Shown here piece by piece: positions 32,601 through 35,600 of a stretch of 41,037 nucleotides of DNA. Each line of letters opens with the position of its first letter. The stretch's first letter is position 1. The DNA lies in IMG/VR virus record IMGVR_UViG_2684623059_000003, positions 1 to 41,037 of that record; one strand, 5' to 3'. This stretch comes from a virus. Lineage: Duplodnaviria; Heunggongvirae; Uroviricota; Caudoviricetes. A program made the position numbers.

Positions 32601-35600
32601 TGAATGCCAATTTCATCAAGAACCAGCAGATCCACTTCGCACAGTTCCCGCAAAAATTTTTCGCCTGACTGCCCGTCGTCATAGCTGGCGTGCAGGGCAC
32701 TCATAACATCAGCCACAGTAACCACTATCACTGTCTGGCCGTCTTTCAGCAGGCGATTCCCGATAGCCGCCGCCAGATGGTTTTTTCCGGTACCAGGTTT
32801 TCCGCTGAACGCGAAATTTGTACACCCGGTCATCAGTTCATCGGCGATGGATTTTGCCTGGCTTAACGCGTATCGCTGACCGTCGTTCTGCACCTGGTAA
32901 TTCGCAAACGAACATTTGCGGTGCAACGGCTGGATGCCTGAGCGATTCAGAATTTTTTCCACCCGCAACTGACGATTCAGGCGGTTGATCTCCTCGCTAC
33001 GTTTCTGGCCTTCGGCAAGCTGCCACTCGCGCCACTCCGCCACCGTTCTGTATGGAGCGGTTACATGTGGCGGGGTCAGTCTGCGGAGGCGTTCCAGAAC
33101 ACCACCTGTCGCAATATTTTTCACAGTTCGTTACCCCCTGAACCCCGGCGGAATTTCGGTGTCCGGTTCAGAAATGTGATTCACACAACGCTGTACAGGC
33201 GAACGCCCCAGACGGATAACCAGCTCATCCCATTTTTCGCGAAGCTTTGACGGGCTCATGACGTTTTTTACCCAGAATGGATCCCGCTGTACCCGACCAA
33301 ACATTTCGCAAATTTGCCTGTGAGTTCTGCCATCCAGCATCCGCATTGTGCGCACGTCATTGGCCCACACGGTCCAGTTTGGTTCTTTCGGTCGCATGAT
33401 CTCGCCATCATCGCTGGCAGCCTGCTCGTAAAGACTCACGATTCGTCCCCAGATCCACTGCGCACAAGCTAAATCTTCCTGGCTACCCCACTGGCGTTTT
33501 TTCGCACTGAACACAACCGCGTCAGGGTGTCGGGTTAAAAAATCCTGTTCAGCCGTCTGCATGTCCGGTTGCGAAGCTTCCGGACGAGAAGTGTTTTTAT
33601 TCTCTGTAGTAATCTCTGTTGTATTCTCTGTAAGATCATCGGGCCATTTTGACCCGATGACATTGGGTCGTTTTGAACCAATGGAGCGTGTCATTTTGGC
33701 CTCTTCCATCGTGTCATTTTGACCTGATGGAGCGGCGCATTTTGACCTGATGGAATTGCTCACTTTGCCACCATCTAAAAGCTCGCTCTCGTAATTAATC
33801 GTGTAAAAATTAGTCATGTCACGCTTTGATTTGTTGAGCTTTTCGCAACGCAAAAGCCCCAGCATTTTCAGACTTGCAAATGCGCGTTTTAACGTTGACT
33901 CTGACCAGAACGGGAACTGTTCCAGCCATTGTTCTGTTGTGTTATAAATCCAGCGAACCCCGTTACATTCCATGCCGGAATTAGTATCTCTCAACCAGTA
34001 ATGCAGCTGCTGCAGTACAATGGCTTCATTCAGGCCAATTTTCATCGCCAGCTGCGTATTAATAACCAGTGGGCGTTCAGCAAAAAGAAGACTCATAATT
34101 CCATCCGGCTTTTTGTTGATATTGCTGACGATACGCATGCTTGAAAGCAATAGCTTTTTCTATAAGCTCGTCAGTCTCACGCTCCACAACAGCGGGATCT
34201 GCCAAAAGCAGACCGGACTCCACCACATCGCCATATTCTTTGTTTAACCCGGCGATCATGTACGTAATGCTTTTTCCGTCACTAATTTCACGATACAACC
34301 TGAAATCATTAATCCGGATAGCCTCCATAATTGCAGGCACTAGCGCCGTGAACTTTTCACGCTTATCCCTGGTGTCGATAGCCTTCCAGCGTTCGAATAT
34401 CTTCACTCGATTAACGCCAAGCGCTCGCTGATCAACCGCGCCACCTTCATCTGTGACACGCTGAACATCGAGGTTCGGGCGCTCTTTCAGAGCCCAGAAT
34501 GCTTCAGTGATTAATATCGTCGCCTGCTCCTGTGTCATTCCTGGTCGACATATCCAGGCATCCAGAGCCTCACGAGCCTGTTCAGGAGTGATTTTCATTG
34601 TTCAACCGCCCCGCCCGCTTCGTCTTACGATATTCGTCATAAACCTTGGGATCATACAGAAGCTCGCCGCCAGATGCCTCCTGTAGACGCATCGCGCGAC
34701 CTTCAGGAACCAGCTCTTGCCATTGAGAAACAGCAGATGGGTCAACGCCAGCAGCTTTCGCTACTTTGGCTTTCGTACCGTAAAAATTAATTACGTCTGA
34801 TTTAAACATCGCACCTCCAATATTGAGTTTTCTCAATGCTAATCACTCAAGGAATCTCAAGTCAAGGGTTATTAAGATATCTAAATATGAACGAGAAAAC
34901 TTTAGGTCAACGTATTAGAGAAAGACGTAAGCAGGTAGGCTTAAGTCAAAACGGTTTAAGCAAAGCTGCTGGCGTATCTGGCTCATCAATTTCATTATGG
35001 GAAAGTGACCATACAGCACCGCGCGGGCAAAATTTGCATCGCCTCGCCGAGGTATTGCAATGTTCACCAACCTGGATACTGTTTGGCGACGAGGACAAAA
35101 CACCAGCTCCCCCTGTTTCACTCGATAGTGCCTTAGACTTATCGGAAGATGAGTTAGAGATGCTGCGTTTGTATCGCGCACTTCCTAAATCAGAGCAACA
35201 AGCACAACTCAGCGAACTCCGCGCCCGCGTTGAGAATTTTAATCGCCTGTTCACCGAGCTATTAGAGGCTCGCAAACGCAACAAGCATCAATAATCATCC
35301 CTTCACAAAATTTTAAAGCCTTACATTTCAATGTATTGGCTTTATCCTGCGCCAATACTTGAGTTTTCTCATCAAAAAACCTTGACGAAAAACAATGAGA
35401 AAACTAAATTACCTCCATCAACACACCGCACGGTGTTCTCAGCAAACAGTTCCGCTACCCCGGCGTTAAGGGGAAATGAGGTCAGCATGGATACTATCGA
35501 TCTTGGCAACAGCGAATCTCTGGTATGTGGCGTGTTCCCCAACCAGGACGGTACGTTCACCGCGATGACATATACCAAAAGCAAAACGTTTAAAACCGAA

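What the first reader, a model, noticed from the sequence alone, without database searches (positions are those of the whole stretch)
34810..35420. Repeated operator motif CCAATA(C)TTGAGTTTTCTCA on both sides of the dicA-like repressor gene
A 14-bp palindrome TTGAG-TTTT-CTCAA lies in the dicC/dicA divergent intergenic region. The same CCAATA-C-TTGAGTTTTCTCA sequence recurs downstream of dicA, immediately upstream of a near-consensus promoter (TTGACG, 17 nt, TAAATT), with an inverted copy TGAGAAAACT inside the spacer. This is an OR/OL-like architecture: one repressor controls the cro-replication operon leftward and the dicB division-inhibitor operon rightward.
Basis: seen in the sequence. Interest (0 to 1): 0.5.

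Follow-up and report, generated by a model that had tools for sequence, protein, structure and literature searches.

The report
Operators of a DicA-type phage repressor
The repeated TTGAG-TTTT-CTCA motif is real and is almost certainly the operator set of a DicA/DicC-type prophage immunity switch, an arrangement already known from the E. coli Qin prophage, so this is a new specificity variant of an ordinary, well-understood system.

Summary
TTGAGTTTTCTCA occurs exactly at 34823-34835 and 35359-35371. A one-mismatch inverted copy lies at 35396-35408, inside the spacer and -10 of TTGACG-17-TAAATT (35382-35410).

The window is 99.5% identical to phage mEp460. The genes are a DicA-subfamily repressor, a divergent DicC/P22-Cro-like gene, and a rightward ydfA-DicF-dicB operon.

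Three comparisons support operator function:
- Different immunity alleles (K-12 Qin, BL21, strain 120, Citrobacter and others) keep the same geometry. Each has one palindrome at the leftward promoter and two copies bracketing the -35 of the rightward promoter. The motif sequence changes with the repressor's recognition helix.
- Buttiauxella homologues (74-76% identical repressor) keep the window's motif, nearly exactly, at all three places while the flanks diverge.
- In 84 near-identical loci, polymorphism piles up beside the cores and largely spares them.

The "CCAATA(C)" flank is haplotype-specific and is not part of the operator.

The OR/OL-like reading is supported. It restates what Béjar et al. 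(1988) and later work established for Qin dicA/dicC/dicBp. Binding itself is untested. Low interest; new member of a known kind.

The parts
34823..34836 (.). O1, the Oc/OR1-equivalent operator core TTGAG-TTTT-CTCAA (perfect 16-bp palindrome at 34822-34837). It overlaps the -10 and the predicted start of the leftward promoter.
   Evidence: Invariant in 16 IG1 haplotypes from 84 loci, while the 3 nt on each side vary. Present in Buttiauxella: exact in B. ferragutiae, CTGAG left arm in B. gaviniae. Same position as the experimentally defined K-12 Oc (PMC3441716).
34836..34865 (-). Leftward promoter-like site TTGACT-18-TAGCAT (dicCp/PR analogue) driving the Cro/DicC-like gene, YdaT and the replication genes.
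   Evidence: Homologous matches are found in K-12 (TTGACT-17-TATCTT) and Buttiauxella (TTGACC-18-TAGTAT).
34846..34863 (.). Weak candidate middle site, ACTCAAGGAATCTCAAGT. One good half-site (ACTTGAG on the minus strand) over the -35 and spacer of the leftward promoter. Low confidence.
   Evidence: Read from the sequence; repeat pair I8. Its position corresponds to K-12 'Om', which DicA did not bind in vivo (PMC3441716).
34870..34887 (.). Oa-like near-palindrome TATTAAG-ATAT-CTAAATA abutting the repressor ATG. It could be an operator (perhaps Cro/DicC-preferred), the repressor promoter, or both.
   Evidence: 2 mismatches to ATTGAG-N4-CTCAAT. Palindrome I10. ATTAAGATATCTAAA is invariant in the window, Buttiauxella and Citrobacter braakii.
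34582..34809 (-). Cro/DicC-like gene (75 aa).
   Evidence: Pfam P22_Cro, E=3e-16. NCBIfam DicC, 165 bits. 70% identical to K-12 DicC, with the differences in the N-terminal HTH part.
34887..35294 (+). DicA-like repressor gene (135 aa; HTH_3 N-terminal domain, no peptidase domain).
   Evidence: 57% identical to K-12 DicA. The N-terminal domain is closest to the P22 C2 repressor DNA-binding domain among solved structures, E=8e-16.
35314..35344 (+). Hairpin downstream of the repressor gene (AAAGCC...GGCUUU followed by AU-rich sequence). Probable terminator that insulates the rightward promoter from repressor-gene read-through.
   Evidence: -11.3 kcal/mol, z=-3.7, 0 of 200 shuffles fold as well. 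It fails the simple terminator scan because the T-run is weak.
35359..35372 (.). Distal OL-type operator core TTGAG-TTTT-CTCAT. Its dyad lies 16.5 bp upstream of the first base of the -35 hexamer.
   Evidence: Only singleton or doubleton variants in 43 IG2 haplotypes, while the flanks vary heavily. The dyad-to-(-35) distance is the same in K-12 (my count on the sequences printed).
35382..35410 (+). Rightward promoter TTGACG-17-TAAATT (dicBp/PL analogue). The predicted start is about 35417, at the conserved CATCAA.
   Evidence: Positionally homologous to K-12 dicBp (TTGACC-17-TAATCT), which DicA represses 22-fold (PMC10448788).
35395..35408 (.). Proximal OL-type operator, ATGAG-AAAA-CTAAA (minus strand TTTAG-TTTT-CTCAT). 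It sits in the spacer and -10, so its right half doubles as the -10 hexamer.
   Evidence: Conserved in Buttiauxella. Nearly invariant in 43 haplotypes.
35417..35486 (+). Conserved 5' leader of the ydfA-dicF-dicB operon, shared by all E. coli immunity alleles.
35487..35639 (+). ydfA (DUF1391), first gene of the rightward operon.
36462..36513 (+). DicF small RNA.
   Evidence: Rfam RF00039, 76.7 bits.
36688..36876 (+). dicB cell-division inhibitor gene.
   Evidence: Pfam DicB, E=1.6e-36.
29552..29803 (-). rem homologue, 98% identical to K-12 Rem, which behaves as an antirepressor of DicA in Qin.
   Evidence: PMC10448788.

Best explanation
The three copies of TTGAG-N4-CTCA(A/T) are the operators of a DicA/DicC-type lambdoid immunity switch carried by an mEp460-like prophage.

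Proposed mechanism (inferred):
- A dimer of the 135-aa DicA-like repressor, whose DNA-binding domain resembles that of P22 C2, binds O1 (34823-34836). O1 covers the -10 and start site of the leftward promoter, so binding blocks the Cro/DicC-YdaT-replication operon.
- The same repressor binds two sites at the rightward promoter. One lies just upstream of the -35 (35359-35372). The other lies in the spacer and -10 (35395-35408). Binding there blocks the ydfA-DicF-dicB operon.
- The Cro-like DicC protein probably uses the same sites to shut off the repressor gene.
- The repressor has no autocleavage domain, so induction is expected to go through the Rem antirepressor encoded at 29552-29803.

Shown here: the sites, their geometry, their conservation and their covariation with the repressor allele. 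Inferred: binding, repression, the role of DicC and the role of Rem.
For: 1. Significance and clustering. All matches with up to 2 mismatches to the palindrome in 41 kb fall in this locus.

2. Positions relative to promoter-like sites fit steric repression.

3. Family membership. The repressor and the Cro-like gene exceed the NCBIfam DicA and DicC cutoffs. DicF and DicB lie downstream.

4. Covariation.
- K-12 and TW08637 use TGTTAG-N6-CTAACA, BL21 uses TGTTAG-N6-CTAACA with other centres, and strain 120 uses CTTAG-N6-CTAAG. The window and Buttiauxella use TTGAG-N4-CTCAA.
- In each allele the motif is found once near the cro-like start and twice around the -35 of the ydfA promoter. The two downstream sites are 35-36 bp apart centre to centre, and the upstream dyad is 57.5-59.5 bp from the repressor ATG in most alleles.
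- The helix-3 sequence tracks the motif: S(G/D)SSISLW with TGAG, and (S/A)HV(S/T)(V/I)SQW with TTAG.

5. Footprints.
- Buttiauxella repressors that are 74-76% identical keep (A)TTGAGTTTTCTCAAT (C for the first T in B. gaviniae) and TTGAGAAAACTAA amid diverged flanks.
- In 84 loci the O1 core has 0 of 14 variable columns, against 14 of 63 in the rest of the intergenic region.
- The two downstream cores carry 7 haplotype differences over 30 columns, against 172 over 41 flanking columns.

6. The homology break with other alleles lies just after the -10, so promoter and operators travel with the repressor.

7. Experimental precedent in the K-12 homologue.
- DicA binds Oc, and single Oc mutations abolish binding (PMC3441716).
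- Deleting dicA raises dicBp activity 22-fold, and Rem raises it 165-fold (PMC10448788).
- The strongest DicC ChIP peak is at dicCp, with a palindromic TT(A/C/T)G...C(G/A/T)AA motif (PMC11430063).
Against: - No binding or expression data exist for this allele.
- In K-12, DicA bound only Oc and not the two other predicted sites in the dicA-dicC intergenic region (PMC3441716).
- The Reg-Seq paper (PMC7567609) describes the DicA repressor site for dicB as low-evidence with unknown location.
- Conservation of the proximal site is confounded with its role as spacer and -10.
- The whole dicC-dicA intergenic region is well conserved, so the invariance of O1 is weaker evidence there.
- The helix-3/operator covariation rests on few independent lineages.
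- The 36-bp spacing of the two downstream sites (about 3.4 helical turns) is not what simple face-of-helix cooperativity would predict.
Confidence: 0.85

Rival explanations
1. The sites are used mainly or only by the Cro-like DicC protein, and the DicA-like repressor recognises something else.
For: The K-12 DicC ChIP-seq motif is a similar palindrome, with its strongest peak at dicCp (PMC11430063). The N-terminal HTH part of DicC also differs between alleles, so covariation alone cannot tell the two proteins apart.
Against: In K-12, DicA binding to Oc was shown genetically, and dicA deletion derepresses dicBp whereas dicC deletion does not (PMC3441716, PMC10448788). Lambdoid Cro and CI proteins share operators, so this complements the main reading rather than excluding it.
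Confidence: 0.08
2. The repeats are non-functional remnants of a duplication or recombination between the two intergenic regions, or arise by chance.
For: In the window's haplotype the similarity extends into the CCAATA flank beyond any conserved core. That is what a duplication would leave behind.
Against: 0 of 100 shuffles reach the observed count. The core is conserved while the flank is not, both across haplotypes and across genera. The same three-site geometry appears with unrelated motif sequences in other alleles.
Confidence: 0.03
3. The motif is a site for a host factor (for example a nucleoid protein or another host regulator) rather than for the phage repressor.
For: The centres are A/T-rich. 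[quoted passage not shown]
Against: The motif changes with the phage immunity allele within one host species, which a host-factor site would not do. It occurs nowhere else in the 41-kb window.
Confidence: 0.03

Closest known systems
Qin cryptic prophage dicA-dicC-dicBp immunity region of E. coli K-12 (Bejar et al. 1986/1988; Yun et al. 2012, PMC3441716; Ragunathan et al. 2023, PMC10448788)
   Same: - Gene order is the same: dicC-like, then dicA-like, then ydfA...dicF-dicB.
- The repressor is 135 aa with no cleavage domain.
- A palindromic operator sits at the -10 of the leftward promoter.
- Two copies bracket the -35 of the promoter downstream of the repressor, with the same dyad-to-hexamer distances.
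- The operon leader is identical and the Rem protein is 98% identical.
   Different: - The repressor is only 57% identical and the Cro-like protein 70% identical.
- The operator is TTGAG-N4-CTCAA instead of TTGTTAG-N6-CTAACAA.
- Helix 3 is SGSSISLW instead of SHVSVSQW.
- The element is an apparently intact mEp460-like phage with replication genes leftward, not a decayed prophage.
Phage P22 c2 repressor and its 18-bp operators (solved N-terminal-domain/operator complexes 2R1J, 3JXB)
   Same: The N-terminal domain is the closest solved homologue (E=8e-16, ungapped over residues 1-72). The operator layout is compatible: half-sites around a 4-bp centre. The near-palindrome at 34870-34887, TATTAAGATATCTAAATA, resembles the P22 consensus as I recall it (own knowledge, not tested).
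   Different: There is no C-terminal LexA-like peptidase domain. The positions aligned with P22 N32, V33 and Q37 are G, S and L. There are two sites 36 bp apart at the rightward promoter rather than three adjacent ones.
Phage lambda OR/OL with CI and Cro
   Same: The logic is the same: divergent repressor and cro genes, operators overlapping both early promoters, and a bistable switch (PMC10448788).
   Different: The repressor family and size are unrelated, and no RecA-mediated cleavage is expected. The operator sets are about 540 bp apart, separated only by the repressor gene. The tripartite arrangement is not clearly present.

Membership tests
DicA/DicC (Qin-type) immunity region | The repressor belongs to the DicA subfamily. 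| tested here: met
   NCBIfam NF007257 'transcriptional repressor DicA': 239.4 bits against a cutoff of 101, full length 1-135. 57% identical to K-12 DicA.
DicA/DicC (Qin-type) immunity region | Short repressor lacking the LexA/S24-type autocleavage domain. | tested here: met
   135 aa; Pfam finds only HTH families.
DicA/DicC (Qin-type) immunity region | A divergently transcribed DicC / P22-Cro-like gene. | tested here: met
   NCBIfam DicC: 165.3 bits against a cutoff of 130. Pfam P22_Cro, E=3e-16.
DicA/DicC (Qin-type) immunity region | Related palindromic operators at the dicC promoter and at a promoter downstream of dicA. | tested here: met
   Sequence level only. The geometry is the same as in K-12.
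DicA/DicC (Qin-type) immunity region | The downstream promoter heads a ydfA...dicF-dicB operon. | tested here: met
   DUF1391 and DicB Pfam hits; DicF Rfam hit at 76.7 bits.
DicA/DicC (Qin-type) immunity region | The repressor physically binds the operators and represses both promoters. | not testable with these tools
   Needs EMSA or footprinting and reporter assays. Only precedent from the K-12 homologue is available (PMC3441716, PMC10448788).
DicA/DicC (Qin-type) immunity region | A Rem antirepressor is encoded by the same element. | tested here: met
   The ORF at 29552-29803 is 98% identical to K-12 Rem. Its activity on this allele is not tested.
P22 C2 / lambda CI-type SOS-cleavable repressors | A C-terminal peptidase S24 domain with a cleavage site. 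| tested here: not met
   No such domain in Pfam or NCBIfam scans. Only the N-terminal domain is homologous to P22 C2.
Lambda-type tripartite operators | Three adjacent sites (about 24 bp centre to centre) at each early promoter. | tested here: inconclusive
   Rightward promoter: only two recognisable sites, 36 bp apart. Leftward region: one strong site plus two weak candidates at 34846-34863 and 34870-34887, spaced about 24 bp apart.

The most novel reading that the evidence does not exclude
The DicA family may be a natural series of orthogonal repressor/operator pairs mounted on one rigid promoter scaffold.

- This allele may have switched half-site recognition from TTAG to TGAG through helix-3 changes. 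Relative to P22 C2, N32/V33/Q37 become G/S/L; relative to K-12 DicA, H/V/Q become G/S/L.
- In every allele the right half of the proximal operator is constrained to be the -10 hexamer (CTAAAT-like). All alleles would then share one generic half-site, which could give partial cross-immunity between otherwise heteroimmune prophages living in the same cell.
Probability: 0.3. Interest if true: 0.35.

Novelty: new member of a known kind. Interest (0 to 1): 0.2.

Why it matters
This allele matters in three modest ways.
- It defines the likely operator sequence and immunity specificity of a very common E. coli prophage module. About 795 of 5426 complete genomes carry most of this 1.2-kb stretch.
- That module controls the DicF and DicB cell-division inhibitors.
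- The cross-allele comparison gives independent comparative support for where DicA acts at dicBp. The Reg-Seq paper (PMC7567609) lists that site as low-evidence with unknown location.

It does not reveal a new mechanism.

Tried and rejected
1. The CCAATA(C) flank as part of the operator: rejected.
- It is replaced by CCAGGC/TAAATG and other variants in loci with a 96-100% identical repressor.
- Its variants at the two sites are not correlated.

2. A fourth copy, GAGAAAACT at 34893-34901 in repressor codons 3-5: probably coincidental. It is coding sequence, and Buttiauxella has GAAATGACG at that place.

3. The hit at 22029-22041 (2 mismatches): it lies inside a 700-aa ORF, so chance.

4. A crude all-against-all 14-mer match matrix between upstream and downstream regions of 14 alleles separated only the window/Buttiauxella and K-12-type groups. 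The other alleles share the TTAG core.

5. The operon leader as a known RNA element: not supported.
- No Rfam match even at E=10.
- No similarity to the HK022 putL region.
- The folding z-score is not significant.
- Automatic alignment misaligned the first hairpin, so covariation could not be scored.

6. A literature search for the motif string found no paper.

Full report
**The observation**

The sequence is as described. TTGAG-TTTT-CTCAA sits at 34823-34836 and extends to a perfect 16-bp palindrome, ATTGAGTTTTCTCAAT, at 34822-34837. The 13-mer TTGAGTTTTCTCA recurs exactly at 35359-35371. A one-mismatch copy lies on the other strand at 35396-35408.

Allowing two mismatches gives four hits in 41 kb, and none of 100 dinucleotide-preserving shuffles reached four. 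The fourth hit (22029) is inside a 700-aa ORF. For the palindrome ATTGAG-N4-CTCAAT, the only sites with up to 2 mismatches in the window are 34822, 34871 and 35394.

The consensus scan finds exactly one rightward promoter-like site, TTGACG-17-TAAATT at 35382-35410. It finds one leftward site, TTGACT-18-TAGCAT at 34865-34836. The inverted copy lies in the spacer of the rightward site and runs into its -10. The first palindrome overlaps the -10 and the predicted start of the leftward site.

**Context**

The 1.2 kb around the finding is 99.5% identical to phage mEp460_ev081 and 98.4% identical to phage HannyBb. About 795 of 5426 complete E. coli genomes hold at least 80% of it.

- The central gene (34887-35294) encodes a 135-aa protein. 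It has an HTH_3 domain and no other domain, and it scores 239 bits on NCBIfam 'transcriptional repressor DicA' (cutoff 101). It is 57% identical to K-12 DicA.
- Among solved structures, its N-terminal 72 residues align without gaps to the P22 C2 repressor DNA-binding domain (E=8e-16).
- The divergent gene (34809-34582) is P22_Cro/DicC-like: 165 bits against a cutoff of 130, and 70% identical to K-12 DicC. The differences are concentrated in the N-terminal HTH part.
- Leftward follow a YdaT-family gene, a 339-aa ORF annotated as 'Primosomal protein I' in mEp460, and a DnaC/IstB-like ATPase.
- Rightward follow ydfA (DUF1391), DicF RNA (36462-36513, 76.7 bits) and dicB (36688-36876).
- A hairpin after the repressor stop codon (35314-35344; -11.3 kcal/mol, z=-3.7) probably terminates repressor transcripts.

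**Covariation across immunity alleles**

Many E. coli genomes match only the flanks of the query, because the middle is replaced by another immunity allele. I compared the two intergenic regions in K-12 (Qin), BL21, TW08637, strain 120 and RM9245, and in homologues from Buttiauxella, Citrobacter, Yersinia, Rosenbergiella, Symbiopectobacterium and others.

In the alleles read in detail (the five E. coli loci and the two Buttiauxella loci; clear in most of the other genera, not in E. whittamii or LSJC7), there is one inverted repeat next to the cro-like start. In most alleles its dyad lies 57.5-59.5 bp upstream of the repressor ATG. The same motif appears twice at the promoter that precedes the conserved operon leader. 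One copy ends about 7-10 bp upstream of the -35. The other lies between the -35 and the -10. Centre-to-centre distance is 35-36 bp.

The motif itself differs between alleles:
- K-12: TTGTTAGTCATAACTAACAA upstream, then TGTTAGCTATAGCATACA and TGTTAGTCATGGCTAATC downstream.
- BL21: TGTTAGACTTTTCTAACA upstream, then TGTTAGATCAATCTAACA and TGTTAGGTTATTCTAAAT downstream.
- Strain 120: CTTAGATTTTCCTAAG upstream, then CTTAGGTTTTTCTACA and CTTAGGCTATTCTAAAT downstream.
- Window: TTGAGTTTTCTCAA upstream, then TTGAGTTTTCTCAT and ATGAGAAAACTAAAT downstream.

The K-12 upstream site is the experimentally defined DicA operator Oc (PMC3441716). The motif tracks the recognition helix. Alleles with a TTAG core have (S/A)HV(S/T)(V/I)SQW. 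The window, RM9245 and the two Buttiauxella loci have S(G/D)SSISLW and a TGAG core.

Homology between E. coli alleles resumes at CATCAA, about 7 nt after the -10. So the promoter and its operators belong to the exchangeable immunity cassette, while the leader and ydfA do not.

**Footprints**

*Across genera.* The Buttiauxella ferragutiae and B. gaviniae repressors are 76% and 74% identical to the window's. B. ferragutiae keeps ATTGAGTTTTCTCAAT upstream and downstream; B. gaviniae has CTGAGTTTTCTCAAT at both. Both keep TTGAGAAAACTAA in the promoter spacer. The flanks are largely rewritten.

*Within the population.* In 84 loci with a 96-100% identical repressor:
- The upstream core shows no variable column (0 of 14).
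- The three bases on each side of that core are the most polymorphic in that intergenic region.
- Downstream, the two cores carry 7 haplotype differences over 30 columns, against 172 over 41 flanking columns.

Its variants at the two sites are not correlated. It is therefore not part of the operator.

**Mechanism**

The best reading is the classical one. The DicA-like repressor binds O1 and blocks the leftward promoter. It also binds the distal and proximal sites at the rightward promoter, and the proximal site occupies the spacer and -10. These steps are inferred.

The precedent comes from K-12:
- DicA binds Oc, represses dicC and activates its own gene (PMC3441716).
- Deleting dicA raises dicBp activity 22-fold, and Rem raises it 165-fold (PMC10448788).
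- DicC, when induced, represses dicA strongly and binds most strongly at dicCp. Its motif is palindromic, TT(A/C/T)G...C(G/A/T)AA (PMC11430063).

The window encodes a Rem protein 98% identical to the K-12 protein. The repressor lacks a cleavage domain. Antirepressor-mediated induction is therefore the expected route (inference).

**Uncertain extras**

- A near-palindrome TATTAAGATATCTAAATA (34870-34887) abuts the repressor ATG. It is invariant from E. coli to Citrobacter.
- A half-site-bearing stretch at 34846-34863 lies over the leftward -35.
- These two correspond in position to the K-12 sites 'Oa' and 'Om', which DicA did not bind in vivo (PMC3441716). They may be DicC sites or promoter elements.
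- No Shine-Dalgarno sequence precedes the repressor ATG in any allele I read. This suggests a leaderless mRNA, as for lambda cI (inference, not tested).

**Comparison and novelty**

This is a member of the Qin-type DicA/DicC immunity family by every feature that could be tested in sequence. It is not a member of the SOS-cleavable C2/CI class, and the lambda-style tripartite arrangement is not clearly present.

The OR/OL-like architecture was published for Qin in 1988 (cited in PMC10448788). What is new here is only the operator sequence of this specificity group and the comparative support for the dicBp sites. No paper in the library contains the motif string. The Reg-Seq paper lists the DicA site at dicB as low-evidence with unknown location (PMC7567609).

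I rate it a new member of a known kind, with low interest.

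Noticed in passing
window 35417-35486: The 5' leader of the ydfA-dicF-dicB operon is nearly identical in all E. coli immunity alleles, although the promoter and operators just upstream are allele-specific. Its first hairpin (ACACCG-CA-CGGTGT, 35423-35436) is replaced in Buttiauxella and Citrobacter by a different self-complementary sequence (AATCACT-CAGC-AGTGATT). In Yersinia, Rosenbergiella and E. whittamii, the equivalent place has a hairpin with a GAAAGA-type loop (AAAG in Yersinia, GGAAGA in Rosenbergiella). It may be a nut- or put-like antitermination element. 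There is no Rfam hit and no similarity to HK022 putL.
   Followed up: partly
window 29552-29803 (-): A rem homologue, 98% identical to K-12 Rem (the antirepressor that relieves DicA repression in Qin), sits about 5 kb from the immunity region. Next to it is a hok/mok-like gene, going by the mEp460 annotation.
   Followed up: partly
window 34870-34887: The near-palindrome TATTAAGATATCTAAATA abuts the repressor ATG. No Shine-Dalgarno sequence precedes that ATG in any allele examined. This suggests a leaderless repressor mRNA, as for lambda cI from PRM.
   Followed up: no
window 34745-34758 and 34962-34975: A perfect 14-nt inverted repeat (ACGCCAGCAGCTTT / AAAGCTGCTGGCGT). Both arms encode K-A-A-G-V in the helix-turn-helix of the divergent Cro-like and repressor genes, using identical codons. 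About 0.003 such repeats are expected by chance in 1.2 kb (my estimate).
   Followed up: no
window 34820-34822, 34837-34839 and 35352-35358: In 84 near-identical loci, polymorphism concentrates in the few bases immediately flanking the operator cores. These bases may tune affinity, or they may simply be unconstrained.
   Followed up: partly
L012 (Citrobacter braakii) 1109-1214 and 1606-1800: An allele with helix 3 SHATISLW carries hybrid operators: GTTGAG on one arm and TAACAA on the other upstream, then GTTGAGTTTTATCACC and GGTTAGTAATCTTAACC downstream. It looks like an intermediate between the TGAG and TTAG specificity groups.
   Followed up: no
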